A stretch of 64,000 nt of DNA from Oscillospiraceae bacterium. GTDB taxonomy: Bacteria > Bacillota_I > Bacilli_A > RF39 > UBA660. The stretch lies in contig CAVGWA010000005.1 of the NCBI GenBank assembly GCA_963632935.1, positions 610 to 64,609 on the forward strand, written 5' to 3'. The translations under genes and the position numbers were made by a program. Position 1 is the stretch's first letter. Each line of letters opens with the position of its first letter. The notes beneath the pieces were generated by a model. That model worked only from the letters and a program-made list of their open reading frames with translations. It had not been told where the DNA came from and searched no databases. This document shows positions 20,403-56,648 of the stretch, piece by piece.

Positions 20403-21806
20403 TTAATTATTTACTACATATGGATTAGAAATAGTTCCTTCACCTGATAAAGTAATATCAGATGATAAGAAGAAGACTGGAGATATAGAACTTACACTAG
20501 AAGGTAAACTCCAACCTGTTGACCAACTAATAGAATACAAATGGCCTGCATAATCAGTATAAGTTGGTGTAATTGTATAACTAGATAAATATGCTAACCA
20601 GTTTGTAGCCATACATTCATAACCTTCCTCATAAACAGAACTTTTACGTAAAGTACCACATAATTCTGTATTACTATTAGCCTTTACATAATCGCTTGCA
20701 TTTATTAATCCTATTTTGCCCTTCCACTGATAAGTGCTTTCTTGACTCAATGTATCAGATAAACTAGTATCTGCATAACTCATTGCACTTGTAATACCTA
20801 CATTAAACAAATGCGTTACTATTTTGCTTTGTATATTTGTGGGTAATGTATTTAACCATGTTTTATTTAAATATGTATTTATATATGCTTCTTTTTCCGG
20901 AAGATTATACAAATTTCCTCCTACAGTCCTTGGCATAGACGTTACATTATTTCCTGATGAATCTAACATTGTTGTCCTACTTCCCCATACATTACAGCCT
21001 GAATATTGAGCTTCTACTGAAGGAGAAGAAGGATTCCCATTCGAACCATAATAACAATAATCCGTAAATGAACTTGTATATCTTGTTCCAGTAACAGAAT
21101 TTGCATCCGTTACTCCTGATATACTTGTTGAATATCCTGGGTCAAATGGCATACTTCCAATGTTATCATTTTTAATTACTTTAAGTGTTCCATCTGATTC
21201 TATAGATATTATTCTATACATATCAGAACCTAATTTAATATAATTACCTGGAGTTACTCCTTTATACACATATCTATTTGATTCGGTACTATCAACATAT
21301 AACCCATCTCCCGATGTTACTACACCCTTAATCAAATCAGATGTTTCAGTAAAAATACCACATTCAGCTTCAGATACCTTAGTAAAAGTTAAAGTTTTAT
21401 CAGTATCTTTTTTTATGGCACATATTCCAACTGATTTATTATAAACAGCCATTGAAATTTTACCATCTTTATCAATTTTTATTGTTCCACTATCTGGATT
21501 TGTTCCAGAATATTTAAGTAAACTTTCAGTAGAAGTTTCTTCCTTTTTTGTTTGGGCGTTTGTATATGTATTTGTTTGATTTTGATTTTTAAATGTAATT
21601 TGTAATGGTAATTTTACTGTTTCTTCTAGTGATTGAGAACTATAATAGTTTTGAGAAGCTTTTAATAATAATGTTGTGCTATCTTCAAAACTCTTTGTTT
21701 TAGCAGTACTAATAACATTAAGAACAATTGGTGTTGTTATGGTTGCTATTATTCCAATGATTATAATGACAGCTAATAATTCAACTAATGTAAAACCTTT
21801 TTTCAT
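20403..21806 (-). CDS. Type IV pilin-like protein with a large (about 430 aa) C-terminal domain
   Basis: The start is set at ATG 21806 (MKKG|FTLVELLAVIIIIGIIATI), a prepilin class III signal with Glu at +5. This ATG overlaps the TAA of the upstream pilin gene (TAATG). Confidence 0.8.
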   Translation of the reverse strand: MKKGFTLVELLAVIIIIGIIATITTPIVLNVISTAKTKSFEDSTTLLLKASQNYYSSQSLEETVKLPLQITFKNQNQTNTYTNAQTKKEETSTESLLKYSGTNPDSGTIKIDKDGKISMAVYNKSVGICAIKKDTDKTLTFTKVSEAECGIFTETSDLIKGVVTSGDGLYVDSTESNRYVYKGVTPGNYIKLGSDMYRIISIESDGTLKVIKNDNIGSMPFDPGYSTSISGVTDANSVTGTRYTSSFTDYCYYGSNGNPSSPSVEAQYSGCNVWGSRTTMLDSSGNNVTSMPRTVGGNLYNLPEKEAYINTYLNKTWLNTLPTNIQSKIVTHLFNVGITSAMSYADTSLSDTLSQESTYQWKGKIGLINASDYVKANSNTELCGTLRKSSVYEEGYECMATNWLAYLSSYTITPTYTDYAGHLYSISWSTGWSLPSSVSSISPVFFLSSDITLSGEGTISNPYVVNN

Positions 21807-22210
21807 TAAGCACATTTTTCCTTATTATTTTTATTAATGTATTCATAAAAATATTTTTTATAATTGCTTGTTACCTTAACAACATCCTTTAACATTTCAC
21901 AATTTTTTTTGCTATTTATTGTATTGCTACTTATATAACCATTATCAACTAAAACTTGTCCTGTTATCTCACCACTACTACCATATTCTTTTATAACAGT
22001 ATCTGATTTTAATGCTTTAGGAAATTCATCAACATGATTATTTACATAATTTCTAGCAGCTGATATCATTAATTGTTTTGATGCTTCATCTGTTTCATTT
22101 TGCGAATTATTAAGCATGCTTAATACAGCAGGAAATGCTAATAAAGCTATAATAGCAAGTATAACAATCGTTCCTAATAGTTCAATTAAAGTAAATCCTT
22201 TATTTTTCAT
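21806..22210 (-). CDS. Type IV pilin-like protein (134 aa)
   Basis: MKNKG|FTLIELLGTIVILAIIALLAFP, a canonical prepilin cleavage/methylation motif followed by a pilin-sized globular part. Confidence 0.85.
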   Translation of the reverse strand: MKNKGFTLIELLGTIVILAIIALLAFPAVLSMLNNSQNETDEASKQLMISAARNYVNNHVDEFPKALKSDTVIKEYGSSGEITGQVLVDNGYISSNTINSKKNCEMLKDVVKVTSNYKKYFYEYINKNNKEKCA

Positions 22211-27193: not shown

Positions 27194-27559
27194 CTAACCT
27201 CCGTATGTATATTCTAATGTACCATTATTGTTTTTTACTTTTACATAGCTAGCTTCTTCAATAACTTTTGATTTTGTTTTAGGGTTTTGTAAAGTTCCTT
27301 GAACATAACCTGCAGCAACTAAATCTTCCGATTGTATTGTTTCTTCTGAACCATTTGTTGTTTTTAAAATATAATATTCATCTGAATGCACTTCCACATA
27401 TACTTCAGCCGCTTTTTCAATGGTATGTTTATATTCTGCATAATTATTTTCCTGAAATTTTTTATTTGTATCTATAATTGATGGAACAGATACTAAGATT
27501 ATAATTCCAAGTATAGTTAAAATTGCGAGTAATTCAACTAATGTAAAACCTTTATTCAT
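27194..27559 (-). CDS. Type IV pilin-like protein (121 aa), first gene of the pgk operon
   Basis: MNKG|FTLVELLAILTILGIIILVSVPS. Its stop codon lies 4 nt before the pgk start. A terminator lies upstream (27617-27641) and a candidate promoter lies between them. Confidence 0.85.
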   Translation of the reverse strand: MNKGFTLVELLAILTILGIIILVSVPSIIDTNKKFQENNYAEYKHTIEKAAEVYVEVHSDEYYILKTTNGSEETIQSEDLVAAGYVQGTLQNPKTKSKVIEEASYVKVKNNNGTLEYTYGG

Positions 27560-45596: not shown

Positions 45597-47990
45597 TTAT
45601 ATTTGATCTATATATTCAAGTAATTTTAGAAACATTCTAACAAATTTTTTATCAAGACCAATGCGTGATAGTTTACGAACTGCTATTCTTTTTTTCTTAA
45701 TATCGTTGATACTGAATAATATTGAATCAATTTTTTCTTTCATTTGTGTTGATATTTGTAAGTCACTTATGATTCTTTTAATATCTTCATTAATTAATCT
45801 TACGGCATCTATTTCAATGTCTTTACCTTTACAACTTAATGATAGTTGTCCAACTGTTGGTACATCTTTTATTTCAACTACAAAATCTGGTCCATCAACA
45901 TATGTTTTTAATGAAATTGGAGTATTATTGCTTTGTGCGGCAACATCTGTGGTTCTTTTTGTGTTTCTGAAGACAATTTTGTAATTACGTTTTTCAGGGA
46001 TGATACCACTTTTTCCTTCAATAGCTCGTATAACAACACTATAGTTATTTGGCATATATGTATAATCTATTTGTGTTAAAATATAATAATTTTTACGATA
46101 TAGATCACTTTCTCCATCATCTTCAAATAGCGTATATGAATTGCTTGTGCCTGGGAATATATGAATTTCCATATCAGTTGGTGGTGTTGTATCATTTAAG
46201 TTTTCATTGTTGCTTAAAGGAATAATGGAACCTGATTTAGCAAATACAGGGTAATCTTCATCTCTAAAAAAACTAATATAGCTTTTGTTTCCTGAAAATT
46301 TTTTGCCAGTAACAAAGTCATACCATATTCCATCTGGAAGGTAAAAGTTATGTACAACACGGTTCATGACAGTGTCTTTTGGTGTGATTATTGGTGCTAT
46401 AAATAATGATGTACCGAAAAAATATTCATTACGGTATAAAACGTCATCATATAATTTGTTTTTAATGTAATAAAGGGGTTTTATTAATTGATCACCAAAT
46501 TTATGATATTTATATGCTTCGCTATATATATATGGAATTAATTTATGCCTTAGTGTTAGGTAATCTTTGGCTATTGTGTATGTTTTTATATCCCATCGCC
46601 ATGGTTCTCTTTTATAATAGTTTCCTTTATCAACACCAAATTTTAAAATTGGTGAAAAGGTTGCTAGTTGAATTGACCTTAGATACAACTCATTATCTTC
46701 GGTTCCTTTAAAATATCCACTAATATCATGTGCCCAAAATGGTGCACCATTATTAAAGCTGTTATTATTATAAAAAGGAATTTTTCTTAATGTATGCCAA
46801 CCTACACTTGTTTTACCTGAATATAATACTGGATAGCGGTGTTGGGCGATATTATTGCCATTTGAAAGTAACAATGGACGACGTTTAAAGTCTCTTTTCA
46901 TATCTGAAAATTGATAATGTTTTAGAAGATTTAATTCTGGGTTATTTTTGTCTGTGTCCAGCCAATAGAAATCAACGCCTAATGAGTCTAGCGAATGAAT
47001 TAGTAGTTTAAAATATACATCTATGAATTTAGGATTTAATATATTAAATGGTATTTTATTGTTTTCCTCTGATAAATATTTTAGTGCTTCATTGTAGTAT
47101 TTATCAATGTTATAAATTCCTGATGTTGGGTCTATGCTTAATCCTAAACGAATATTTTTTGTATGTAGATAATCTATCATGGCTTTAGGATTTTTGAAGT
47201 AATTATTGTTAAATGTAAATCCTGTTTTTAATAGTTTATCTCCAATTTTTATACGGTTGTGCCAATCTTTATCTAATACTACTACTGATAATGGGATTTC
47301 TTTATTTTCAAAGGTATCTACTAATGTTTTTAAACTTAAATCATTATAATCGTTATTGCTACTCCACCAATTGCCTAATGCATATCTTGGAATTAAAGCA
47401 GGATATCCTGTTATTTGATAATAGTCTTTTAATGCTAATTCAAAGTCTTTATTATACATGAAAAGATACGTGTCTATTCTTAAATTTTCTACAGTTTTAG
47501 TTGTGCCATCTTCATTCATTATTAAGGAGGATGTATCATCAATACTTGCCATACCATCTGCTGAATATAATCCTTTTCCTTTAAGTCCACCCTCTTCTAA
47601 TGAGCTATTGGGAATTCCGTAGTTACGTATTTCTGGATGCCCATAATACCAATAGTATTCTGTATTTAATAATTCTACTTTTAAATTGGCAGCTGGTGAT
47701 GCTTTACCACCTAAAAATGATTTTTCTTTGATATATGTCAATTTAAAGTATTTTGTTTTTATGACTAAAAAGTTTGTATCTTCATCTACATCAAATGATG
47801 GTGTTTTTAAATCTCTATATAAAACTAATTGCGTTGGTTCATCTAAAAAAATGCCATTATCATTATATTCTAATCTTATTAATCTTTCGGTTAAGATTGT
47901 AAATCTATATTTTTTTCCTTTAATTATATTTTTAGGATTTGCTAGTGCTCTTTTTTTATCTATTTTAAATTGTTCCCCTAAATTATACAT
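45597..47990 (-). CDS. Glycoside hydrolase family 31 (alpha-glucosidase/xylosidase-like)
   Basis: 797 aa. GVDFYWLDTD (nucleophile-region-like) and FWAHDISGY (acid/base-region-like) blocks, with N- and C-terminal beta-sandwich-sized flanks. Confidence 0.8.
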   Translation of the reverse strand: MYNLGEQFKIDKKRALANPKNIIKGKKYRFTILTERLIRLEYNDNGIFLDEPTQLVLYRDLKTPSFDVDEDTNFLVIKTKYFKLTYIKEKSFLGGKASPAANLKVELLNTEYYWYYGHPEIRNYGIPNSSLEEGGLKGKGLYSADGMASIDDTSSLIMNEDGTTKTVENLRIDTYLFMYNKDFELALKDYYQITGYPALIPRYALGNWWSSNNDYNDLSLKTLVDTFENKEIPLSVVVLDKDWHNRIKIGDKLLKTGFTFNNNYFKNPKAMIDYLHTKNIRLGLSIDPTSGIYNIDKYYNEALKYLSEENNKIPFNILNPKFIDVYFKLLIHSLDSLGVDFYWLDTDKNNPELNLLKHYQFSDMKRDFKRRPLLLSNGNNIAQHRYPVLYSGKTSVGWHTLRKIPFYNNNSFNNGAPFWAHDISGYFKGTEDNELYLRSIQLATFSPILKFGVDKGNYYKREPWRWDIKTYTIAKDYLTLRHKLIPYIYSEAYKYHKFGDQLIKPLYYIKNKLYDDVLYRNEYFFGTSLFIAPIITPKDTVMNRVVHNFYLPDGIWYDFVTGKKFSGNKSYISFFRDEDYPVFAKSGSIIPLSNNENLNDTTPPTDMEIHIFPGTSNSYTLFEDDGESDLYRKNYYILTQIDYTYMPNNYSVVIRAIEGKSGIIPEKRNYKIVFRNTKRTTDVAAQSNNTPISLKTYVDGPDFVVEIKDVPTVGQLSLSCKGKDIEIDAVRLINEDIKRIISDLQISTQMKEKIDSILFSINDIKKKRIAVRKLSRIGLDKKFVRMFLKLLEYIDQI

Positions 47991-48007
47991 AAGTATTTTT
48001 TCCCCCT

Positions 48008-49420
48008 TTATATTTCTTCTATTTGCATAAAGTTTGTGTGCATTACTTTTTTAAATGGATAACCACCTGTTATTATGATTTTGTCTCCTTGTTTTAAATT
48101 TAATTCTTTTATCAATTTTTCTTTTACGTTTTGTGTTAGGCTTTCTAGGGTATCACCTTCTGCTTTTAAAGGTAATATTCCAAAATTTAATTGCATACTT
48201 TTTACTACTTCTTCATTTGATGCTGCTGCTATAATTGGGCATGGTGGTTTTAATTTACTTATATATCGTGCTGTTTTTCCAAAGTTTGTTGCTACAAGTA
48301 TTGCTTTACATTCAAGTTCATTTGCTCCTAGAACAACACTTGATGAAATTGTAGATGTTATGTTTTTTTCTTTTGTTGAAAGTGAATTCCTAAAGAAATA
48401 TTTGTAGTCAATGCTGTCTTCAGATTCTTTAATTATTTTACTTACTATTCTTACTGTGTCTATTGGGTGTGCACCTATGGTTGTTTCGCTTGTAAGCATA
48501 ATAGCATCAATCGCATCAGAAACTAAGGTTGAAAGATCTGATACTTCTGCTCTATTTGGAACAGATTTTCTTGTTAGAAAGCTATTAAATTCTGCTGTTA
48601 TTATCATTAAACATCCTTGTTCATAACATTTATGAATAATTTTCTTTTGAATGTTTGGAACTACTTCTATAGGCATATCAATACCTATATCACCTCTGTC
48701 TAATATAATCCCATCTGCAATATTTATAATATTGTCAATGTCATCTACCGCTCTTTTATTTTCTATTTTGGCAAGCAAGCCTATATGTTCATTTTTTAAT
48801 TCTATTAATAAATCATTAATTTCTAATACATCTTCGGCTGAAGAAATTGATGATATGCTGATAAAATCTACGTTCATTTCATTAGCAAACAGTATATCTT
48901 CATAATCTTGTTTTGTTAAAAATTTTCTATTTGGTTTTGTTTCCGGCAAATATATTTTTGAATTATCAGTTACTTCGCCACCTTTTAATACTTGACAAAC
49001 AACATAATCTAATCCTTTTTCAGTGACTTGAAGAATGACATTTCCTTTACTTAGTTTTATTTTTGTATGATATTTTAAATCATTTACTAAATTAGGATAA
49101 TTGACTGAAAACCCTGTCATATCTCCTTTCATATCATCCATATATATTCTTATTTTATCACCAGTATTTAGCATTGCTTTACCGTTTATAAACTTATTTG
49201 TTCTAATACATGGTCCCTCTAAATCAAGCATAACAGCTACATTGGTATTTAATTTTTGATTTTCTTCTTCTATTAGTCTAATTAATCTTTTGCATATTTC
49301 ATGATTTGAATAGCTCATGTTTAAACGTATAACATCGATACCACTTTTAATAAATTCTTCTATTTGTCTTTTTTCATCTCTGTTTTCGCATATTGTCGCA
49401 ATTAATTTTGTTTTTTCCAT
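48008..49420 (-). CDS. pyk: Pyruvate kinase
   Basis: The start is set at ATG 49420 (MEKTKLIATI) with an AGGTGA SD. Motifs: RLNMSYS, KIENKRAV, DGIILDRGDIGI and MLTSETTIG. Confidence 0.95.
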   Translation of the reverse strand: MEKTKLIATICENRDEKRQIEEFIKSGIDVIRLNMSYSNHEICKRLIRLIEEENQKLNTNVAVMLDLEGPCIRTNKFINGKAMLNTGDKIRIYMDDMKGDMTGFSVNYPNLVNDLKYHTKIKLSKGNVILQVTEKGLDYVVCQVLKGGEVTDNSKIYLPETKPNRKFLTKQDYEDILFANEMNVDFISISSISSAEDVLEINDLLIELKNEHIGLLAKIENKRAVDDIDNIINIADGIILDRGDIGIDMPIEVVPNIQKKIIHKCYEQGCLMIITAEFNSFLTRKSVPNRAEVSDLSTLVSDAIDAIMLTSETTIGAHPIDTVRIVSKIIKESEDSIDYKYFFRNSLSTKEKNITSTISSSVVLGANELECKAILVATNFGKTARYISKLKPPCPIIAAASNEEVVKSMQLNFGILPLKAEGDTLESLTQNVKEKLIKELNLKQGDKIIITGGYPFKKVMHTNFMQIEEI

Positions 49421-49539
49421 TGTCCTTATCACCTACTTTAATTAAATTATAATTGATATATCTTTTAAAGTCAATTAATTTTATATGCGGTTTCATATGA
49501 ACTTTTGTATAAATTTTAGTGGCTTGAAGAAATTATAAA

Positions 49540-49568
49540 CATAAAAGAGATGATTTTTGTCATCTCTT
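49540..49568 (-). terminator. Rho-independent terminator after the giant pilin gene
   Basis: Stem aagagatga (49545-49553) / tcatctctt (49560-49568) with a 6-nt loop, followed on the minus strand by ttttat. Confidence 0.65.
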
Positions 49569-49570
49569 AA

Positions 49571-52500
49571 TTAAGATACTCTTAAAACAAATTGTGCCCA
49601 AGCTTCGTTACCTGCATTATCCCATATTTTACGTTGCTCATCAAAGTCAATCGGACGATAAAAATCAGATTCTATATGATATGCACAGGTGGTTGTCCAT
49701 ATACAATTTGAAAATGAACCATTCGTTGGTTTCCAATATATTAAATCCGAACCTGCTTTAACTCCTGATAAACTATCAGCTTTATATACGCTTGCATCAT
49801 AAGCAATCCAGCCATTAAACGTTGCATTGGCATAACAGCTTTGTCTTCCGTCGCAATTCGAATATGTTATGGTTAACTTGCTACCTCCGACTACATTATA
49901 GAAATAAAGTGTTGGTGAAGTCACATCCATCATTAATTTTGCTGATGAAGAATTTGAAACATTTCCAGCTTTATCTACTGCTCTATAGTAAATTGTTTGA
50001 TTCTTTTCTGGTGACCAGTTATTTGTGGCACCAGTATCAGTCCAGGTACCATTATTACCTAAACGATATTGATATTTAGAAATTCCAGAGCCTTCATCTT
50101 TTGAAGATACAGTTGTAATTATACTACTATTGTTCCACTGTGAATTAGATGCTCTAACACCTAATTTATTGATTTTATATTTCAATCCAGAAACATTACC
50201 AATGTCAAATCTAACATTGTTATAAGTTCCATTTGGAATTGTAATTGTAATTTTAGTTTGTCCTGCTTTTAATGTTGCTTTTTTGGAATTAGCTTCACTA
50301 TGACCATTTCCACTTGTTGCGTAGAATATTTGGATATTTATGTCTTTAGTTAGTGCTGATGCTAATTCAATGTAGGCACCATCTATATTTTTTATCCAGT
50401 TTCCAACTTCAATGTCTATTATTGGATCATTAGTTGAGGTTTCCCATGTTCCTGTTGTTCCAGCATCACTTTTGTATCCATTTAAGGATTTTGTTTTAGT
50501 TCCCCATATGTTATATATTGTACTTATTGTTGGTGTAGTTGGCGCTGTTTTATCTAAAGCATTTGCATATAAAGTTTTATTACCAGTTAATGTATATTTA
50601 CTACCGGCTGAGGTACCTGAAGTAGCTCCACTAGTTGTATTCCATCCAACTGATGTATATCCAGTTTTTGCTGTAATACTAGGTAAAGTTACTGTGCAAC
50701 TAGTTGCTTGAGCTGTTCCATTATAAGTTGCTGCACGTGTGCAGCTTCCAGTAGTTGCTCCAATTGCAGATACATTAGCTCCTTTACTATAAGTTATAGT
50801 ATGAGTTTTCGCATTTGCTTTAGTAATTGCATAATATGTTGCATTTGAACTTACTGCTTTAGCTGTATTTTGATTCCATCCACTTGTTGTAGCTGATGAA
50901 GAAGTATTATATCCAACTACTGTTGGTGTATTACTACTTCCTACTATTGTTGGACTAGTTACACTACATGTTGTTGCTTGCGAAGCATTATTATAAACTG
51001 CAGCTATTGTACAAGAACGTGTTACAGTAGTATCACTTACAGCTGTCCCACTACTATTTGTTTGCGTTGATGCATTATTTTTATTAAATGTAACTGTTAT
51101 TGTTTTTGCTTCTTTTCTATATATTGCATACAAAGTTACATTACTAGTTCCCATCGTTAAACTAGATAATTTACTAGTCGCATCCTTATTTGTATTCCAT
51201 CCAACAAATGTATAACCTGATTTGGTTGCTGTTGGAGTTAAATCTATAGCTGATGATTCATTAACTATCGCTGACGTTTTAGTAGAAGATGTTCCTCCAT
51301 TTGTTTTATAATTGTATGTTACTGTTCTTCTAATAGCAATATTATATGAAGTTGATATGGTATTTGTTCCATCAGTTACTTTCGCTATTAAAGTGGTATT
51401 GCTTGTAAATTCTATGGTTGGATTAGATGTTACTGTAACCCAGTTAGTTCCACCATCTTTACTATAAGAACATGTTAATCCATTAGAGCATCCTGATGGA
51501 TATGTAACAGTTACTTTTGATTTGCCTATTTCAGTCTCTTCTGAGAAAGTAGGTTTATTTATTGTTACTGTTGAGACTGTTTTACTTGCAGTATTTTGTT
51601 TAGAAGCTGTAGAAGTTACTCTTACTTTTATATTATAATTTGTTCCATGTGTTAATTTATCAAATGTATAAGTATTACCGGTTCCGGTAACCCATGTAGA
51701 ACCACCATCTTTAGAATATTCATATTTTGAAATACCTGATAAAGCATATGCATTAGCTACTACGGTTATGCTTTTGGAAGTTGATGTTGTTGATATACTT
51801 AATGTAGGTGCGGTTGCATCCCTTTTTACAGTTAAATTACATGTTCCAGTATTTCCAGCTTTATCTTTAACAAAACCATAGTATGTTTTTGATGATACAT
51901 CTTGATTTAATGTTTTTTCTGTTACATTATTGTATTCTACATTATTTGTCTCGGTTAATCCTTTAGATGCTACTCCACTTTCTTTGTCTGTTGCTGTTAG
52001 GGTTATCTTTACATCTGATGTATACCAATTATTATTTCCCAAAGTTCCTGATGAAGTTATTTTACAAGTTGGTTTTACTGTATCTGTTATCTTAAATGTT
52101 TTACCATCAGAGATATTACCCGCTTTATCTTTTGTCCATACATAATAAGTACCTAATGAATAACTATTAGTATATACCTTTTCTTCATTTGCCTTAGATG
52201 TAAATGATGTCCAACTATTACTTGTTTCACTCGGTTTTGTACTAGAAGTACTGATATATATACCATTTATTCCTGATATAGTATCTTTTACAGTAATATT
52301 AACTTTTTGTTTTTCATTAGACCAAGAGTCTAATTTAATATTTGTAATTAAAGGATTAACACTATCTACATTTATTACTTTATATTTATTTGTTATTGTG
52401 TTGTTTCCTTTTAGTTGTGCAGTTATTGTAGATATTTTAGTGAACGTTAGTTTTGTTTTTCCTCCAGAGTTTGCTCCATCTATGATCCAATTTCCTTCAT

Positions 52501-52996
52501 CTATTTTATATTTTGATTTATAATCACCTTCAACTTCTGGGTACAATATTGTAACGGTTCTTGATTTTACCCAACTGTTCCCATATGGATTTACAATAAA
52601 ATCAATGGTAGGCATTGCGGCTTCTTCTTTACATGAAGTGGTATCTTTTATTTCATATTCTGATGTACCTTGTGAATATATTGTTACTAATACAGTTTTA
52701 TCAGTTATATCTTTATTAGTTTCAACATCCTTTACAGGCGAAACTAAATATCCATTATCGACAAGTATTTGTATAGGAATGCAGTACTTACCACTTTTCC
52801 CTTTGGGATATAAATTACTATTTTCATCAATATATTGCTGTGTAGCTGTCCCTATAACACTATCACTTGCTATTTTTGATGGTGCTTTTGTTTTTGCAAT
52901 ATTATTTATAATTGTTGGCACAATTAAAATAAGTAACAGAGATATTATTACTATTACTCCTAATAATTCTGCTAATGTAAATCCTTTATTTTTCAT
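49571..52996 (-). CDS. Giant type IV pilin-like adhesin (about 1,141 aa): prepilin N-terminus, Ig-like modules and Listeria-Bacteroides-type repeats
   Basis: The start is set at ATG 52996 (GGGTGA SD): MKNKG|FTLAELLGVIVIISLLLILIVP. There are four D(K/N)AGN-terminated modules (KDKAGNIS, KDKAGNTG, VDKAGNVS, WDNAGNEA) and three GY(T)xVGWNT/GYNT repeat modules. Confidence 0.8.
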   Translation of the reverse strand: MKNKGFTLAELLGVIVIISLLLILIVPTIINNIAKTKAPSKIASDSVIGTATQQYIDENSNLYPKGKSGKYCIPIQILVDNGYLVSPVKDVETNKDITDKTVLVTIYSQGTSEYEIKDTTSCKEEAAMPTIDFIVNPYGNSWVKSRTVTILYPEVEGDYKSKYKIDEGNWIIDGANSGGKTKLTFTKISTITAQLKGNNTITNKYKVINVDSVNPLITNIKLDSWSNEKQKVNITVKDTISGINGIYISTSSTKPSETSNSWTSFTSKANEEKVYTNSYSLGTYYVWTKDKAGNISDGKTFKITDTVKPTCKITSSGTLGNNNWYTSDVKITLTATDKESGVASKGLTETNNVEYNNVTEKTLNQDVSSKTYYGFVKDKAGNTGTCNLTVKRDATAPTLSISTTSTSKSITVVANAYALSGISKYEYSKDGGSTWVTGTGNTYTFDKLTHGTNYNIKVRVTSTASKQNTASKTVSTVTINKPTFSEETEIGKSKVTVTYPSGCSNGLTCSYSKDGGTNWVTVTSNPTIEFTSNTTLIAKVTDGTNTISTSYNIAIRRTVTYNYKTNGGTSSTKTSAIVNESSAIDLTPTATKSGYTFVGWNTNKDATSKLSSLTMGTSNVTLYAIYRKEAKTITVTFNKNNASTQTNSSGTAVSDTTVTRSCTIAAVYNNASQATTCSVTSPTIVGSSNTPTVVGYNTSSSATTSGWNQNTAKAVSSNATYYAITKANAKTHTITYSKGANVSAIGATTGSCTRAATYNGTAQATSCTVTLPSITAKTGYTSVGWNTTSGATSGTSAGSKYTLTGNKTLYANALDKTAPTTPTISTIYNIWGTKTKSLNGYKSDAGTTGTWETSTNDPIIDIEVGNWIKNIDGAYIELASALTKDINIQIFYATSGNGHSEANSKKATLKAGQTKITITIPNGTYNNVRFDIGNVSGLKYKINKLGVRASNSQWNNSSIITTVSSKDEGSGISKYQYRLGNNGTWTDTGATNNWSPEKNQTIYYRAVDKAGNVSNSSSAKLMMDVTSPTLYFYNVVGGSKLTITYSNCDGRQSCYANATFNGWIAYDASVYKADSLSGVKAGSDLIYWKPTNGSFSNCIWTTTCAYHIESDFYRPIDFDEQRKIWDNAGNEAWAQFVLRVS

Positions 52997-53014
52997 ATCA
53001 TCACCCATAAATGG

Positions 53015-53035
53015 CCGTATAAATACCATTTATAC
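53015..53035. promoter_or_regulatory. Palindromic motif copy 1 (CCGTATAAATA-cca-TTTATAC) in the giant-pilin leader
   Basis: Read directly at 53015-53035, between the candidate -10 (53054-53059) and the start codon (52996). Confidence 0.3.
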
Positions 53036-53053
53036 AATACCTTTCATACTAAA

Positions 53054-53062
53054 ATTATATCA
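53054..53062 (-). promoter_or_regulatory. Extended -10 (TGaTATAAT) candidate promoter for the giant pilin gene
   Basis: The minus strand reads tttGATATAATttt. TATAAT is at 53054-53059 and TG at 53061-53062. The -35 is weak (AAGACT). Confidence 0.35.
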
Positions 53063-53122
53063 AATTTATATAAAAAAGTCTTAAAAAAGTAAGAATATTG
53101 TTTTTTGCAGCACTTTTTTTGC

Positions 53123-53143
53123 CGTATAAATAGTATTTATACG
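53123..53143. promoter_or_regulatory. Palindromic motif copy 2: perfect 10-1-10 palindrome CGTATAAATA-g-TATTTATACG
   Basis: Read directly at 53123-53143. It shares CCGTATAAATA with copy 1. It is flanked by T-runs on the plus strand and A-runs on the minus strand. Confidence 0.3.
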
Positions 53144-53234
53144 ACCTTTTTTTCACATATTATTAATAAAATTAAATTTTACATTTTTTACACTGGTTAT
53201 TTTTTTATAAAAAAATATGACTTACATTGCATAT

Positions 53235-53558
53235 TTATTTTAAATCATCAATATTTTTCTTTAATTGTTTAGCATCTTCACCAAAAATTATTTTTAATTG
53301 ATTATCAATTTCAACTATTCCTTGAGCACCCATTTTTTGAATTGCTTCTTTGTTTACAAGATCAATGTTGTGAAGATTAACAACAAATCTTGAATTATTT
53401 ACTTCATAATTAATAATATTTGCTGTTCCACCTAGGTATTCAATTAGTTTGTTTGCTTCAAGTTTAAAATCTTTGTTTTTAGCTTTCAAAATTGCAAATG
53501 CTATTACAAGTAAAATTACAATTATTACTATATATTGCCACATCATTTTATCACCCAT
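53235..53558 (-). CDS. Membrane-anchored PTS EIIB(Glc)-like domain protein lacking the phosphorylatable cysteine
   Basis: An N-terminal TM helix, then LIEYLGGTANIINYEVNNSRFVVNL...GAQGIVEIDNQLKIIFG, which parallels the EIIB pattern LGG..NI.....C.TRLR......G..G......Q.I.G. Cys-x-Thr-Arg-Leu-Arg is replaced by Asn-Asn-Ser-Arg-Phe-Val. Confidence 0.6.
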   Translation of the reverse strand: MGDKMMWQYIVIIVILLVIAFAILKAKNKDFKLEANKLIEYLGGTANIINYEVNNSRFVVNLHNIDLVNKEAIQKMGAQGIVEIDNQLKIIFGEDAKQLKKNIDDLK

Positions 53559-53562
53559 TTTA

Positions 53563-53722
53563 ATTATACTATATTTTTTATTATTTGGACAAAAGTTTTT
53601 ATTTAATGTTATAAATTTTATATTTTCTTTACTGTTTTTTTTGTGTGTTAGTGTATTATATTAGTGGTAATATAAATGAAAAATATTTCTAAATACCAAC
53701 TTGATAAAACTATATTAATTCC
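53563..53722. repeat. Direct repeat copy 1 (160 bp): duplicate of the rodA promoter, RBS and first 16 codons
   Basis: About 96% identical to 54042-54202, with roughly 6 differences including two indels in T-runs. Confidence 0.9.
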
Positions 53723-53738
53723 CAAGTTTAACAGTTGA
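53676..53738 (+). pseudogene. Truncated 5' fragment of the RodA/FtsW gene (20 codons, then element-derived sequence and a stop)
   Basis: MKNISKYQLDKTILIP-KFNS* compared with the intact gene MKNISKYKLDKTILIP-ILIF.... The SD is weakened (GGTAAT vs GGTGAT). Confidence 0.6.
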
Positions 53739-54041
53739 AAAAAATTTTAGCTCTCTAAGCCTTATAAATCCTAGGTTTAGCTAGTTTTTGAAATTGTCGT
53801 AGTATTCGTAACTATTGACTATTGATTTAACTTTATATATAATTTTTATATAAATTAAAAGAAAATAAAGAAAATTTAATATTACTTATAAAGTAAGAAA
53901 TTATAAGGTTTTATACAAATTTTCAAAAAAAATTTTTAAGTAAATTAAATAATAGATACTACGCAAAAAAATAAATCCTCTCATTCCCAGTATTTATAAT
54001 GGTTTGTGGGGATTTTTTATGGTACAACTGTCAAACTCAAG
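53723..54041. mobile_element. 319-bp non-coding insert with imperfect terminal inverted repeats (MITE-like or IS/integrative-element scar)
   Basis: The left end caAGTTTAACAGTTG (53723-53737) matches the reverse complement of the right end CAACTGTCAAACTcaag (54025-54041) at 12 of 13 positions. There is no ORF over 30 codons. It is bracketed by the 160-bp direct repeats. Confidence 0.35.
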
Positions 54042-54202
54042 ATTATACTATATTTTTTATTATTTGGACAAAAGTTTTATTTAATGTTATAAATTTTATA
54101 TTTTCTTTACTGGTTTTTTTTTGTGTGTTAGTGTATTATATTAGTGGTGATATAAATGAAAAATATTTCTAAATACAAGCTTGATAAAACTATATTAATT
54201 CC
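54042..54202. repeat. Direct repeat copy 2 (161 bp): functional promoter, RBS and 5' end of the RodA/FtsW gene
   Basis: See copy 1. This copy continues into the intact 376-codon ORF. Confidence 0.9.
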
Positions 54203-55286
54203 TATTTTGATTTTTGCTTTTATTAGTATTATTACTTTATATGGAGCTAAAAGTATTTTACCAAGTACTATGAGCCATTTGATGACAAATCAAATAATTT
54301 GGTATATTGCTGGCTTTATTTTAATTTATTTAATAATGACAATTGGAAATACTTACATTTATAGAATAAGCTGGTTTTTATATTTTGTAGGAATAATTTC
54401 ATTAATCGGACTTTTTTTCTTCGGAAAATCCATTAATAACGCAGTATGCTGGTACGAAATAAAAGGTATTGGTACAATTCAACCTAGTGAATTTATGAAA
54501 ATAATTTTAATTATTATAAATGCATCTATGATTTCTAAATTTAATGAAGAATTTCCAAATCCAAGTGTTAGAGAAGAATTTATGTTTTTAGTAAAAGTAT
54601 TTCTTGTTATTTTACCCCCAAGTATTTTAACATTTATGCAACCAGACACTGGTGTTGTTTTAATTTATTTATTAATTACATTTGTTATGCTTTTTATTTC
54701 TGGCATTAGATATAGGTGGTTTATTGCCGTTATTGCAACAGGAGTTATTACTGTTGGATTTGTTTTAGGAATTTATTTTTTAAATCAAGATTTATTTATT
54801 AAAATATTTGGAACTAGTTTCTTTTTAAGGGTTGATAGATTATTAGATTGGTCTAATCAAAGTGGCTATCAACTTGAAAACAGTTTAAGTTCCATTGGTT
54901 CAGCGGGTCTTTTTGGGCATGGTTTAACTAGTAACCCAATTTATTTTCCTGAAGCTCAAACTGATTTTATCTTTGCAGTTTATGCAAGTCATTTTGGATT
55001 TATTGGATCTATTATTTTACTTTCTTTGCTTGCTATTTTTGATATAAGATTAATCACATTAGCTTTAAAAACCAATAAATTAGTAAATAAATATGTCATT
55101 GCAGGTGTTGTTGGTATGCTTATATATCAACAAGTTCAAAACATTGGTATGACTTTTGGCTTACTTCCAATAACTGGTATTACACTACCTTTTATCAGTT
55201 ATGGTGGTTCAAGTTTATTAAGTTATATGCTTGCAATGGGAATGATATTTAATATTTCAAATGAAAACATGAGATATACAAATTAA
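54156..55286 (+). CDS. SEDS-family peptidoglycan glycosyltransferase (RodA/FtsW/SpoVE family)
   Basis: 376 aa with 10 TM helices. Motifs: IQPSEFMKI, PDTGVVLIY, EAQTDFIFA and LPITGITLPFISYGGSS. Confidence 0.92.
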   Translation: MKNISKYKLDKTILIPILIFAFISIITLYGAKSILPSTMSHLMTNQIIWYIAGFILIYLIMTIGNTYIYRISWFLYFVGIISLIGLFFFGKSINNAVCWYEIKGIGTIQPSEFMKIILIIINASMISKFNEEFPNPSVREEFMFLVKVFLVILPPSILTFMQPDTGVVLIYLLITFVMLFISGIRYRWFIAVIATGVITVGFVLGIYFLNQDLFIKIFGTSFFLRVDRLLDWSNQSGYQLENSLSSIGSAGLFGHGLTSNPIYFPEAQTDFIFAVYASHFGFIGSIILLSLLAIFDIRLITLALKTNKLVNKYVIAGVVGMLIYQQVQNIGMTFGLLPITGITLPFISYGGSSLLSYMLAMGMIFNISNENMRYTN

Positions 55287-55313
55287 AAACTGCTTATTCA
55301 GCAGTTTCTTTTT
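55287..55313. terminator. Bidirectional terminator between the SEDS gene (+) and rpmF (-)
   Basis: Stem aaactgct (55287-55294) / agcagttt (55300-55307) with a 5-nt loop and a T-run downstream on the plus strand. It overlaps the last codons of rpmF. Confidence 0.55.
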
Positions 55314-55482
55314 TAGCAACTATTTCTTTGCCTTTATAAGTTCCACATTCTTTACATACGCGATGTGGTTTTACTGGTGCACCACATTTAGGGCATACTG
55401 TAACAGTTTTAGCACTTATTTTATAATGGGTACGACGCATTCTTCCACTAGTTTTACTAACTTTTCTTGCTGGTACGGCCAT
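55294..55482 (-). CDS. rpmF: 50S ribosomal protein L32
   Basis: MAVPARKVSKTSGRMRRTH... with a CPKC...CKEC zinc ribbon. Confidence 0.93.
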   Translation of the reverse strand: MAVPARKVSKTSGRMRRTHYKISAKTVTVCPKCGAPVKPHRVCKECGTYKGKEIVAKKETAE

Positions 55483-55493
55483 GATAACACCTC

Positions 55494-55952
55494 CTATAAT
55501 AAATCTTTTAACTTAGCTAGGCTATGGTTGCCTTCTTTTTCGCTATCAGTTATAAGTTCCCAACCATTTCCCTTAGCTTTAATATTTCCTTCATTTTTGC
55601 TAACGACTTTAATGGGAATTTCCATTAATATATTTTCCCATATTATTGGTAAAATATCAATAGTTTTTTGATTTTTTTTAAAGTTTTCTAATATTTCTGA
55701 AAAGTTTTCTTCAACTTTTATCGAAAATGGATAATCAACTGGTTCTAAAGTTAAACTACTAGGAAGAACCATTTTACCTTTTATATCAAGGTCAATCATA
55801 TATTCATCATAAGAACATGTTATTTTACCTATTACATTTACCTTTTCCATTTTTAAAATTCCTGCTTTTTTTAAATCGTTTTCATCAAATTGAATTTTTT
55901 CATTTATATCAATACTGTTTTTTGTATTTAAAATATTTAAATCAATATTCAT
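55494..55952 (-). CDS. YceD/DUF177 family protein (23S rRNA accumulation protein-like)
   Basis: 152 aa and acidic. It sits in the conserved position immediately upstream of rpmF. Confidence 0.8.
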   Translation of the reverse strand: MNIDLNILNTKNSIDINEKIQFDENDLKKAGILKMEKVNVIGKITCSYDEYMIDLDIKGKMVLPSSLTLEPVDYPFSIKVEENFSEILENFKKNQKTIDILPIIWENILMEIPIKVVSKNEGNIKAKGNGWELITDSEKEGNHSLAKLKDLL

Positions 55953-55988: not shown

Positions 55989-56648
55989 TTAAGCAAGTTT
56001 TGATATATATAAAAATGCATTAGTATCTGGGGCAGTTGTTAGTTCTGATGCCTTTCTTGTCTTAACAACTAGGTTTATAATATCTCCTTTTTTAGCTCTA
56101 GTAACTGCCATACTGTGGAAATCGGTATCATTATTTACTATAACATCTTTACTAACTTCCGAACCTTCAACAAATTCACCGTTTAACCATATTTCAGTGA
56201 ATAAAGCTGTTTGAACAGAAGAAGAAGCCGAAAAAAAGTATTCTATTTTATATATGCCATCTTCATTAATTGTAAAAGCATTTCCTGTATTAATTATTCC
56301 TATTACTTCACCAGTTCTATTTAATTCAACTTCTTTAAATGTATCATCTTCTAAGTTCATTATATTTCCAGCATCACTAAATTTATATCCAAATACACTA
56401 CGTGGCAAAGGTCCAGTTGGTCCTGTTGGGCCAATACTTCCTTTTGGAATTTTAAAATCTAAAATATGAGTTTTATCTATTAATGTATCTATAACTACAG
56501 CTTCTGTGTCTGGTTCTGTTGTTTCCGTTTTTCTTACTTTAATACTTTCAGATTCTCCTACTGGTCCAGTTGGACCAATATTACCATATTTTTCTTTACA
56601 TTTTTTTCCTTCTATTAAAATATCATCAATTTTTTTTGAATATTTCAT
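55989..56648 (-). CDS. BclA-like spore-surface protein: two mini collagen-like (GXY)4 runs plus a C-terminal beta-rich (C1q/TNF-like?) domain
   Basis: GNIGPTGPVGES (residues 22-33; DNA 56550-56585) and GSIGPTGPTGPL (residues 70-81; DNA 56406-56441). GPT triplets are the hallmark of Bacillus/Clostridium exosporium collagen-like proteins. The C-terminal roughly 135 aa is beta-strand-rich. Confidence 0.55.
   Translation of the reverse strand: MKYSKKIDDILIEGKKCKEKYGNIGPTGPVGESESIKVRKTETTEPDTEAVVIDTLIDKTHILDFKIPKGSIGPTGPTGPLPRSVFGYKFSDAGNIMNLEDDTFKEVELNRTGEVIGIINTGNAFTINEDGIYKIEYFFSASSSVQTALFTEIWLNGEFVEGSEVSKDVIVNNDTDFHSMAVTRAKKGDIINLVVKTRKASELTTAPDTNAFLYISKLA

What the first reader, a model, noticed from the sequence alone, without database searches (positions are those of the whole stretch)
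49571..52996. Roughly 1,140-aa pilin-adhesin fusion, monocistronic
A canonical class III signal (MKNKG|FTLAELL plus a hydrophobic helix) is followed by about 1,100 aa, against about 120-170 aa for ordinary pilins.

Internal periodicity is visible in the sequence. Four modules end in D(K/N)AGN (KDKAGNIS, KDKAGNTG, VDKAGNVS, WDNAGNEA), a pattern I associate with bacterial Ig-like surface domains. Three modules carry G-Y-T-x-V-G-W-N-T or V-G-Y-N-T motifs typical of Listeria-Bacteroides (Flg_new-type) repeats.

The gene has its own extended -10 promoter candidate (53054-53062) and a strong terminator (49545-49568). It lies between pyk and an EIIB-like gene. A filament subunit carrying a megadalton-scale adhesin stalk would be unusual. 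It is more likely a tip or minor pilin, or a pilin-anchored adhesin.
Basis: partly seen in the sequence, partly recalled or inferred. Interest (0 to 1): 0.7.

Follow-up and report, generated by a model that had tools for sequence, protein, structure and literature searches.

The report
Giant modular type IV pilin adhesin
This gene from an uncultured gut bacterium encodes a 122-kDa protein with a complete pilus-subunit module followed by about eleven beta-sandwich domains, including a probable sugar-binding one; this "modular pilin" design is already known, but this example is unusually large and belongs to an unannotated family.

Summary
Window 49571-52996 (-) is an intact, monocistronic 1,141-aa ORF. 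It has a prepilin (class III) signal, four D-x-AGN Ig-like modules, three Flg_new repeats and a strong terminator.

The first ~125 aa form a complete pilin module. It is homologous along its whole length to the window's own 121- and 134-aa pilins (hhalign 98-99%). Mature Glu5, Pro22 and a Cys pair are invariant in 59 relatives.

AlphaFold2 models (pLDDT 85) show an alpha1 helix, a small beta head and a short floppy linker. A string of beta-sandwich domains follows. One of them (aa 811-945) is an uncatalogued module with a CBM32-like fold.

The protein belongs to a large, almost unannotated family in uncultured gut Bacilli (Ca. Coprosoma, CAG:822, CAG:956). Family members occur in several copies per genome, with conserved ends and a variable middle.

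No pilus machinery lies in the window. The closest relative sits directly after pilC-pilD.

Best reading: a minor or tip modular type IV pilin acting as a glycan-binding adhesin, the kind exemplified by Streptococcus sanguinis PilB and PilC. Assembly into a filament is inferred. "Megadalton-scale" is wrong: the protein is 122 kDa. It is a new member of a known kind and of moderate interest.

The parts
49571..52996 (-). Complete CDS, 1,141 aa plus stop (an alternative upstream ATG at 53029 would only lengthen the leader peptide)
52622..52996 (-). Pilin module, aa 1-125. Leader MKNKG, then mature F1, E5, P22. Alpha1 helix aa 8-58, small beta head aa 69-117, Cys72/Cys122 pair. A low-confidence linker at aa 124-126 follows.
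   Evidence: Pfam/NCBIfam; AF2 model; profile hits to solved pilins and GspG; hhalign to the window's short pilins, 97.9% and 99.0%; family invariants
51812..52609 (-). Conserved stem of three beta-sandwich (Ig-like) domains, aa 130-395. The second matches DUF7743. The second and third end in KDKAGN.
   Evidence: AF2 pLDDT >90; Foldseek hits to tandem Ig/Fn3 adhesin stalks; DUF7743 35.1 bits on aa 1-410; conserved at 40-75% identity in the family
51332..51811 (-). Fn3-like domain (aa ~396-490) and CHB_HEX_C-like domain (aa ~491-555)
   Evidence: Weak Pfam hits below cut-off; 50-60% identical blocks in P0002, P0008 and P0020
50567..51331 (-). Three Flg_new (Listeria-Bacteroides) repeats, aa 556-810. 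Repeats 2 and 3 carry an inserted Cys-Cys loop.
   Evidence: Pfam Flg_new 4.4e-16 and TIGR02543; alignment of the three repeats
50162..50566 (-). Uncatalogued beta-sandwich module, aa 811-945, CBM32-like; probable glycan-binding domain
   Evidence: No Pfam model covers it. Only 78 relatives among 1.84 billion representatives, many on pilin-type proteins. Foldseek hit to CBM32 4zy9 (TMt 0.60) and glycosidase accessory domains. The top profile hits in the PDB are all CBM32, at E 0.2-0.4.
49922..50161 (-). OmpL47-type Ig-like domain, aa 946-1025 (D-x-x-SG ... VDKAGN)
   Evidence: NCBIfam NF047446, 49.3 bits against cut-off 40; AF2
49574..49921 (-). C-terminal Cys-rich D-x-LSG...DNAGN domain, aa 1026-1141, conserved at the C-terminus of the ~690-aa family members
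49545..49568 (-). Intrinsic terminator just after the stop codon
   Evidence: sequence
53054..53062 (-). Extended -10 candidate TGATATAAT (not statistically distinguishable in this AT-rich DNA)
53017..53035 (.). Palindrome GTATAAAT-NN-TATTTATAC, copy 2, between the -10 candidate and the start codon; candidate operator
53124..53142 (.). Palindrome GTATAAAT-NN-TATTTATAC, copy 1, about 65 nt upstream of the -10 candidate; candidate operator
27194..27559 (-). 121-aa prepilin; candidate partner or major pilin of the same system
20403..22210 (-). Two overlapping prepilin genes (134 aa and 470 aa) downstream of spo0A; candidate partner pilins

Best explanation
The gene encodes a modular type IV pilin.

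Shown:
- It has a class III signal and a complete pilin module.
- It has an all-beta multi-domain stalk.
- Its family has conserved ends and a variable middle.
- PilB, PilC and PilD genes exist in the lineage.

Inferred mechanism:
- A prepilin peptidase (PilD type, peptidase A24) cuts after Gly5, leaving Phe1...Glu5...Pro22.
- A PilB/PilC-type machine encoded elsewhere in the genome inserts the N-terminal pilin module (alpha1 helix plus small beta head) into a type IV filament built mainly of short pilins. Candidates are the 121- and 134-aa pilins in this window.
- Because ~1,000 aa of bulky domains hang from the pilin head by a short flexible linker, it is most likely a low-abundance subunit at or near the filament tip.
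- The stalk has about eleven beta-sandwich domains: three conserved Ig-like domains, an Fn3-like domain, a CHB_HEX_C-like domain, three Flg_new repeats, a CBM32-like module, an OmpL47-type domain and a Cys-rich terminal domain.
- This stalk would hold binding modules tens of nanometres from the filament. It would mediate adhesion to glycans on mucus, food particles or other cells in the gut.
For: Signal and pilin module:
- G-1/F+1/E+5 followed by a hydrophobic stretch. N_methyl is borderline at 20.2-21.7 bits against a cut-off of 21.2.
- F6, T7, L8, E10, P27 (mature P22), C72 and C122 are invariant or nearly so in 59 relatives.
- A profile of the module hits solved pilins and GspG at E 4e-5 to 6e-3.
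- hhalign matches 114 and 89 columns of the window's own 121- and 134-aa pilins at 97.9% and 99.0%.
- AF2 (pLDDT 85) gives alpha1 at aa 8-58, beta strands at aa 69-117, a low-confidence linker at aa 124-126, then beta-sandwich domains.

Adhesin part:
- Flg_new, OmpL47-type and DUF7743 HMM hits.
- Foldseek matches to SiiE, GhpA, the ice-binding adhesin extender and fibronectin.
- CBM32-like module, supported by Foldseek 4zy9 (TMt 0.60) and by sub-threshold profile hits that are all CBM32.
- 14 Cys forming 7 intradomain pairs.

Machinery link:
- The closest relative (75% identity over aa 1-416) lies directly downstream of T2SSF (PilC) and Peptidase_A24 (PilD).
- A T2SSE PilB lies in L074 and L062.

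Surface-antigen-like evolution: the syntenic neighbours are 80-96% identical, but the pilin homologue at that locus is only 32-62% identical and 558-873 aa long.
Against: - No PilB, PilC or PilD gene lies in the 64-kb window. The rest of this genome could not be read.
- About 70 of 78 related loci also lack adjacent machinery.
- There is no experimental evidence of cleavage, methylation or filament incorporation.
- Pfam N_methyl is borderline because Ala replaces the usual L/I/V/P before Glu5.
- The CBM32 assignment rests on fold similarity and on E-values of 0.2-0.4.
- Glu5 is retained, so by the GspK/PilA criterion this is not the very first (capping) subunit.
Confidence: 0.6

Rival explanations
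1. Pilin-anchored surface adhesin that is not polymerised. The class III signal and alpha1 helix serve only as a membrane anchor, with or without PilD cleavage. The ~1,000-aa stalk spans the cell wall and displays binding modules. This resembles archaeal class III-signal surface proteins that are not classical pili.
For: - The gene is orphan, with no machinery in the window or beside most homologues.
- There are several paralogues per genome, up to four among the kept loci.
- The protein has no LPXTG motif and no other wall anchor.
- A stalk of about eleven domains would be long enough to cross a Gram-positive wall (inference).
Against: - The whole globular pilin head is conserved, not just the hydrophobic helix. 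It is homologous to short pilins, including the Cys pair, Glu5 and Pro22. A mere anchor would not need these features.
- The closest relative is in a pilC-pilD-pilin arrangement.
Confidence: 0.25
2. Major subunit of a 'bottle-brush' filament in which every subunit carries the stalk.
For: - The pilin module is complete and keeps Glu5.
- The linker after the head is predicted to be flexible.
- PMC8179133 does not exclude a location in the filament body when the linker is flexible.
Against: - The same window encodes ordinary 121- and 134-aa pilins, which are better major-pilin candidates.
- Packing 122-kDa subunits at a ~1-nm rise would crowd the filament (inference).
- The paralogues and orthologues are highly divergent and vary in length. 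This is not expected of a structural major subunit.
Confidence: 0.07
3. An ordinary Sec-secreted or wall-associated adhesin whose N-terminus merely resembles a prepilin signal.
For: - Pfam N_methyl (20.2 bits) and TIGR02532 (14.6 bits, cut-off 16.3) fall just below their cut-offs on the full-length protein.
- Non-pilin proteins such as P0002 carry the same middle block.
Against: - A charged Glu inside the hydrophobic segment is invariant in 59 relatives.
- No A-x-A type cleavage site follows the hydrophobic stretch (sequence).
- Homology to short pilins extends 60-90 residues beyond the hydrophobic helix.
- The profile matches solved pilins.
Confidence: 0.04
4. An assembly chimera or decaying gene that joins unrelated pieces.
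For: - G+C is raised (0.325 against ~0.26) in 50-52 kb.
- The architecture is a mosaic shared with different protein classes.
Against: - The 3.4-kb frame is uninterrupted.
- Independent homologues bridge every domain junction: P0008 (aa 4-555), P0002 (305-785), P0020 (399-792), P0011, P0054 and P0102 (~590-1030), P0121 (811-1023), and P0014, P0016 and P0007 (~905-1139).
- Both AF2 models are confident.
- The higher G+C fits the Thr/Ser/Gly/Ala-rich composition.
Confidence: 0.02

Closest known systems
Modular type IV pilins, e.g. Streptococcus sanguinis PilB (pilin + vWA) and PilC (pilin + lectin) (Raynaud et al. 2021, PMC8179133; PMC9934059)
   Same: - Canonical class III signal with Glu5.
- A small complete pilin module joined by a short flexible linker to non-pilus modules.
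- Monoderm host.
- Predicted adhesive, glycan-binding role.
- Expected tip or minor location.
   Different: - It has about eleven extra domains and 1,141 aa, against one or two modules and ~450-500 aa. The largest modular pilin cited in the 2021 survey was 860 aa.
- The gene is orphan among housekeeping genes rather than inside a pil operon.
- It belongs to a multi-copy family with a conserved 'pilin + three Ig' stem and conserved C-terminal domain but a variable middle.
- About half of the relatives tested (31 of 59) have no N_methyl match at E <= 0.001, and most showed no precomputed Pfam domain, so InterPro-based surveys would miss much of the family.
CofB (ETEC type IVb minor pilin) and ComZ, GspK: large minor pilins with extra structural domains
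   Same: A pilin module followed by beta-rich domains, with a tip location, acting as an adaptor or adhesin.
   Different: No sequence similarity was detected. Those proteins have one or two extra domains, are encoded in diderm operons, and CofB forms trimers.
Giant Ig-repeat adhesins (SiiE, the ice-binding adhesin MpIBP, GhpA grappling hook) and Flg_new/choline-binding wall proteins such as P0002 of Firmicutes bacterium CAG:822
   Same: - Rod of tandem beta-sandwich domains (Foldseek).
- aa 305-785 are 59% identical to a block of P0002.
   Different: Those proteins are exported and anchored by type I secretion, choline-binding repeats or other N-terminal anchors. None has a pilin module.
CBM32 carbohydrate-binding modules (YeCBM32 2jd9; chitosan-binding modules 4zy9, 2rv9)
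   Same: Similar size and beta-sandwich fold for aa 811-945 (Foldseek TMt 0.60). The profile aligns in the same register.
   Different: Sequence similarity is below significance (E 0.2-0.4). No Pfam model matches. The ligand is unknown.

Membership tests
Type IV pilin / type 4 filament subunit | Class III signal peptide: short polar leader ending in Gly, then Phe1, Glu5 and ~20 hydrophobic residues | tested here: met
   MKNKG|FTLAELLGVIVIISLLLILIVP. N_methyl scores 21.7 bits on aa 1-410 and 20.2 bits on the full length, against a cut-off of 21.2. The motif is invariant in 59 relatives.
Type IV pilin / type 4 filament subunit | Long N-terminal alpha1 helix packed on a beta-sheet globular head | tested here: met
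   AF2 gives a helix at aa 8-58 and strands at aa 69-117. hhalign to the 121- and 134-aa pilins of the window scores 97.9% and 99.0%. The profile hits solved pilins and GspG.
Type IV pilin / type 4 filament subunit | Prepilin peptidase, assembly ATPase and platform protein encoded in the same genome | tested here: inconclusive
   None in the 64-kb window. Present in relatives: PilC and PilD directly upstream of the closest homologue (L003, L031), and PilB in L074 and L062.
Type IV pilin / type 4 filament subunit | Cleavage, N-methylation and incorporation into a filament | not testable with these tools
   Needs proteomics or microscopy.
Modular pilin (sensu Raynaud et al. 2021) | N-terminal pilin module fused through a short linker to one or more domains not specific to pilus biology | tested here: met
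   Pilin module aa 1-125, linker aa 124-126 with pLDDT <50, then Flg_new, OmpL47-type, DUF7743 and CBM32-like domains.
Competence pilin ComGC / T2SS pseudopilin GspG (NCBIfam equivalogs) | Whole-protein score above the curated cut-off | tested here: not met
   ComGC scores 33.4 bits against 75. GspG scores 27.3 against 88.85. Only the N-terminal helix matches.
Flg_new (Listeria-Bacteroides repeat, PF09479) | Pfam score above the gathering threshold | tested here: met
   59.2 bits against 27, over two stretches. The third repeat is shown by alignment.
OmpL47-type beta-barrel/Ig-like domain (NF047446) | Score above the curated cut-off | tested here: met
   49.3 bits against 40, at aa 955-1020.
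CBM32 carbohydrate-binding module | Significant sequence or fold match, plus sugar binding | tested here: inconclusive
   Foldseek hit to 4zy9: TMt 0.60, probability 1.0, E 2.5e-3. The top four profile hits are CBM32 but at E 0.2-0.4. Binding is not testable here.
Sortase-anchored (LPXTG) Gram-positive adhesin or pilin | C-terminal LPXTG motif, hydrophobic segment and positively charged tail | tested here: not met
   The C-terminus is ...WDNAGNEAWAQFVLRVS, with no LPXTG motif and no C-terminal hydrophobic segment.

The most novel reading that the evidence does not exclude
These small-genome gut Bacilli (~1.5 Mb; Ca. Coprosoma, CAG:822 and CAG:956 relatives) may use the type IV pilin pathway as their general display system for a rapidly diversifying, multi-copy set of giant adhesins. 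Each would have a constant 'pilin + three Ig' stem and a constant Cys-rich end domain, with swappable middle cassettes: Flg_new, lectins and CBM32-like modules, and in more distant pilin-type proteins LRR (P0120). Pilin-type proteins reach ~3,800 aa. The genes are scattered at housekeeping loci and move between neighbouring intergenic slots. This would be a pilus-based counterpart of sortase- or S-layer-based surface display, and a source of host- or niche-specific adhesion.
Probability: 0.25. Interest if true: 0.6.

Novelty: new member of a known kind. Interest (0 to 1): 0.4.

Why it matters
Modular pilins explain how simple type IV filaments gain new functions, but only a few have been studied (S. 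sanguinis PilB and PilC, CofB).

This gene extends the design to a ~1,000-aa stalk of about eleven domains. It also exposes a sizeable family in uncultured gut Bacilli:
- 244 protein clusters.
- 346 stretches in species-representative genomes.

The family is nearly invisible to domain databases. Only 28 of 59 relatives match N_methyl, and most show no Pfam domain at all. InterPro-based censuses of modular pilins therefore undercount it.

The family also carries an uncatalogued CBM32-like module that recurs on pilin-type proteins. This is a concrete candidate for how these uncultivated, reduced-genome gut bacteria attach to glycans.

The finding is useful for annotation and as a target for structural and binding work. 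It does not overturn current understanding.

Tried and rejected
- Pilus machinery in the window. Pfam scans of 30 large ORFs and tblastn with the PilB, PilC and PilD of relatives found none. The genes there are cell-division, glycolysis and translation genes.
- The look-up of encoding contigs for the window's own protein found nothing on record. The rest of the genome could not be examined.
- phmmer of the full-length protein against PDB sequences gave no hit at E <= 0.01.
- Self-BLAST found no internal repeat at E <= 1e-3. The repeated modules are too divergent and show up only by motif, HMM or alignment.
- Tandem repeats at DNA level: only trivial short arrays, with no evidence of a phase-variable tract in the CDS.
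- The word-indexed homologue search with aa 810-1141 gave only 6 hits. The exhaustive HMMER search was needed to find 78.
- NCBIfam did not recognise the alternative N-terminus 'MHRSKKKRN...GYAAFQT' of the non-pilin relatives. I had suspected a SipW/TasA-type signal from memory; this is unconfirmed.
- The upstream palindrome was sought in 80 related loci, both exactly and with up to 2 mismatches, and was absent. It is therefore not a conserved family operator.
- Literature searches for pili in RFN20, or for pilin plus Listeria-Bacteroides repeat, returned nothing relevant.
- ComGC and GspG membership is rejected on score.
- Sec-signal and chimera explanations are rejected (see rivals).
Full report
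**1. What is there**

The ORF listing shows one uninterrupted ORF on the minus strand, 49571..53029 (1,152 aa). It is preceded by GGGTGA four bases upstream and matches the starts of dozens of homologues (M-x-K-K-G-F-T-L...). The upstream ATG would only lengthen the leader, and the mature protein would be the same.

The protein is 122.6 kDa, pI 9.1, and rich in Thr, Ser and Asn. It has 14 Cys that fall into seven close, within-domain pairs. 'Megadalton-scale' in the finding is therefore wrong.

A 9-bp-stem terminator followed by a T-run lies immediately after the stop codon, at 49568-49545. TGATATAAT sits at 53062-53054 as stated. Promoter-like matches here are no more frequent than in shuffled sequence, so the promoter is plausible but not demonstrated.

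The neighbours are pyruvate kinase downstream (PK and PK_C) and a 107-aa protein upstream with a weak, sub-threshold PTS_EIIB match. Gaps of 138 and 238 nt plus the terminator fit a monocistronic unit.

**2. The N-terminus is a real, complete pilin module**

The sequence MKNKG|FTLAELLGVIVIISLLLILIVP has Gly-1, Phe+1, Glu+5 and Pro+22.
- Pfam N_methyl is borderline: 20.2 bits for the whole protein and 21.7 bits for aa 1-410, against a cut-off of 21.2. The cause is Ala in place of the usual L/I/V/P before Glu5.
- The NCBIfam ComGC, GspG, ComGE and ComGD models match only through the N-terminal helix, far below their equivalog cut-offs. This is not a ComGC or GspG orthologue.
- In an alignment of 59 relatives, F6, T7, L8, E10, P27, C72 and C122 are invariant or nearly so.
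- A profile of aa 1-135 finds solved pilins and pseudopilins (Geopilin, GspG 5wda, PilA, PilE1) at E 4e-5 to 6e-3.
- Profile-sequence comparison aligns the module with the window's own 121-aa pilin over 114 columns (97.9%) and with its 134-aa pilin over 89 columns (99.0%). These spans reach well beyond the hydrophobic helix.
- AlphaFold2 on aa 1-410 with 59 homologues (mean pLDDT 85) gives a helix at aa 8-58, a small beta head at aa 69-117, and a low-confidence hinge at aa 124-126. Three confident beta-sandwich domains follow.

A Sec signal would not conserve a buried Glu or a globular pilin head, so that alternative is rejected.

**3. The rest is an all-beta stalk with a probable lectin module**

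HMM hits:
- DUF7743, 35.1 bits on aa 1-410.
- Weak Fn3 and CHB_HEX_C matches at aa ~400-555.
- Flg_new, 59.2 bits (cut-off 27) over two stretches.
- OmpL47-type domain, 49.3 bits against a cut-off of 40, at aa 955-1020.

The three GWNT/GYNT repeats align with each other. Repeats 2 and 3 carry an extra Cys-Cys loop. The four D-x-AGN motifs (aa 290, 378, 1008, 1126) each follow a D-x-x-SG motif. They mark one recurrent Ig-like domain type.

Foldseek of the N-terminal model returns tandem Ig/Fn3 stalks: the GhpA grappling hook, the extender of the ice-binding adhesin, and alpha2-macroglobulins.

AlphaFold2 on aa 810-1141 (pLDDT 85, pTM 0.77) gives three beta domains. Foldseek matches them to the following:
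- SiiE and GhpA.
- Accessory domains of glycosidases: Endo-D, Endo-A, a fucosidase, and Akkermansia sialidase/fucosidase.
- A CBM32 chitosan-binding module (4zy9; TMt 0.60 over 138 columns).

The stretch aa 811-945 has no Pfam model, either here or in its relatives. An exhaustive HMMER search of 1.84 billion representatives found only 78 relatives. At least 14 of them begin with a pilin-type signal, including proteins of 1,368 to 3,792 aa. The closest relative in the word-indexed search is a 377-aa pilin-like protein, P0121, carrying the same module.

A 22-sequence profile of this module finds CBM32 modules as its top PDB hits (2jd9, 2rv9, 4zxe, 4zy9), in the same register, but only at E 0.2-0.4. 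Fold and sequence hints agree, so I call it CBM32-like and probably glycan-binding. This is an inference.

**4. Not a chimera**

Independent homologues bridge every domain junction:
- P0008, aa 4-555.
- P0002, aa 305-785.
- P0020, aa 399-792.
- P0011, P0054 and P0102, aa ~590-1030.
- P0121, aa 811-1023.
- P0014, P0016 and P0007, aa ~905-1139.

The raised G+C in 50-52 kb fits the amino-acid composition.

**5. The family**

The full-length search gave 244 clusters. Most are 630-1,450-aa proteins that start M-x-K-K-G-F-T-L-A-E-I/L-L-G-V-I-V-I-I and share aa 1-406 at 40-60% identity. Many also share the last ~180 aa (OmpL47-type plus Cys-rich DNAGN domain) at ~30%. The ends are conserved and the middle is variable.

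Almost none of these proteins has a name. Most show no precomputed Pfam domain. Only 28 of 59 match N_methyl, and 19 match DUF7743.

The middle block of the window's protein (aa ~305-825) is 59% identical to part of P0002, a 1,853-aa non-pilin surface protein of Firmicutes bacterium CAG:822. P0002 carries choline-binding repeats and begins with a different N-terminus, MHRSKKKRN...GYAAFQT. Adhesin cassettes are therefore exchanged between pilin-borne and otherwise anchored proteins.

In species-representative genomes, 346 stretches encode relatives. All are in uncultured gut 'Bacilli', 'Tenericutes', Ca. Coprosoma, CAG:822 or Mycoplasma sp. CAG:956 MAGs, including two closed ~1.5-Mb chromosomes. 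A single genome often has 2-4 loci.

**6. Genomic context and machinery**

The window has no PilB, PilC or PilD. It does have three more prepilin genes scattered among housekeeping genes: a 121-aa gene between a PASTA-domain gene and pgk, and an overlapping 134-aa and 470-aa pair after spo0A.

The closest relative (L003; 75% identity over aa 1-416, contig end) sits directly after a 574-aa T2SSF protein and a 256-aa Peptidase_A24 prepilin peptidase. L031 has the same arrangement. A 553-aa T2SSE ATPase lies in L074, and one also lies in L062. The lineage therefore has a PilB/PilC/PilD-type machine with dispersed genes.

In seven relatives the neighbourhood yceD-ftsW-EIIB-like-pyk-GH31 is conserved at 80-96% amino-acid identity. 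A family member is present there too, but in a different intergenic slot: before ftsW, between ftsW and the EIIB-like gene, or, as here, between the EIIB-like gene and pyk. These copies are only 32-62% identical over the stem and 558-873 aa long. The three copies scanned with Pfam (L004, L005, L008) showed no Flg_new match. Fast divergence and variation in length and cassettes are what one expects of a surface adhesin or antigen.

**7. Mechanism**

Shown:
- A class III signal, a complete pilin module and a flexible hinge.
- A long beta-domain stalk.
- A family with conserved ends.
- Pilus machinery in the lineage.

Inferred:
- PilD cleaves after Gly5.
- A T4P machine inserts the pilin module into a filament made mostly of short pilins.
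- Because of its bulk, the protein is a low-abundance subunit at or near the tip, as modelled for S. sanguinis PilB and PilC, which also retain Glu5 (PMC8179133, PMC9934059).
- The stalk presents a CBM32-like module and the conserved terminal domain for adhesion to glycans.

The main rival (about 0.25) is that the pilin helix acts only as a membrane anchor and the stalk crosses the wall without polymerisation. The orphan, multi-copy genes favour this. The conserved globular pilin head and the pilC-pilD linkage of the closest relative argue against it.

**8. Comparison with what is known, and novelty**

Modular pilins are a described and widespread class. The 2021 survey found more than 1,200 proteins in 264 architectures, the largest cited being 860 aa (PMC8179133). 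This protein meets that definition.

It differs in several ways:
- Degree: 1,141 aa and about eleven extra domains.
- Its particular domain set, including an uncatalogued CBM32-like module.
- It is orphan and multi-copy.
- Much of its family escapes N_methyl-based detection.

I file it as a new member of a known kind, with moderate interest (0.4). The most novel reading not excluded is that these bacteria use the pilin pathway as a general, cassette-swapping display system for giant adhesins (probability ~0.25).

Noticed in passing
window 53017-53035 and 53124-53142: A 19-bp palindrome, GTATAAAT-NN-TATTTATAC (both copies followed by GGC), occurs exactly twice in the 64-kb window. The copies are 107 bp apart and bracket the candidate -10 of the giant pilin gene. 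The downstream copy overlaps the alternative ATG and the 5' UTR. The palindrome is absent, even with 2 mismatches, from 80 related loci. It looks like a paired operator for an unknown regulator.
   Followed up: partly
window 27194-27559 (-), 21806-22210 (-), 20403-21815 (-): Three further prepilin genes (121, 134 and 470 aa) are scattered among housekeeping genes: one between a PASTA-domain gene and pgk, and two just downstream of spo0A. None has machinery nearby. The C-terminal part of the 470-aa pilin is shared with many of the giant-pilin loci in relatives.
   Followed up: partly
P0002 and about 40 other hits (e.g. P0011, P0055, P0082-P0119): A second class of large surface proteins shares the Fn3/Flg_new cassettes. 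They start with a different conserved N-terminus, MHRSKKKRNIIIFSLVGVLLCMVVGYAAFQT-x-L-x-I-x-GTS-x-VTSNWDI. NCBIfam does not recognise it. The type of signal or anchor is unknown.
   Followed up: partly
L004, L005, L006, L008, L009, L016, L058 against window 45597-55952: The yceD-ftsW-EIIB-like-pyk-GH31 neighbourhood is conserved at 80-96% amino-acid identity. The giant pilin gene occupies a different intergenic slot in different relatives and is far more divergent (32-62%). This suggests local transposition or replacement of the adhesin gene.
   Followed up: partly
L003 5128-7628; L074 17149-18810: Type IV pilus machinery genes are dispersed in this lineage. An unusually long PilC (574 aa) and PilD sit after dnaG-sigA-trmK. 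PilB stands alone next to an unrelated AAA ATPase.
   Followed up: no
window 55989-56648 (-) and 22255-23019 (-); L002 16488-17941: The window has a collagen-like (GPT repeat) protein with a BclA C-terminal domain, and Spo0A. L002 has SpoIIGA and a sigma factor. These are sporulation and exosporium-type genes in a ~1.5-Mb lineage whose records are variously labelled 'Tenericutes' or 'Mycoplasma sp.'.
   Followed up: no
window 53235-53558 (-): The 107-aa 'EIIB-like' protein has an N-terminal hydrophobic segment and only a sub-threshold PTS_EIIB match (E 0.0027). It is nevertheless 92-96% identical across relatives and always sits next to pyk. It is a conserved small protein of unclear role.
   Followed up: no
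P0181 (3,792 aa), P0174, P0163, P0151, P0131: Pilin-type N-termini (K-x-GFTL-I/V-E) occur on proteins of 1,368-3,792 aa that carry the same CBM32-like module. Pilin-fused proteins can therefore be several times larger than the one in this window.
   Followed up: no
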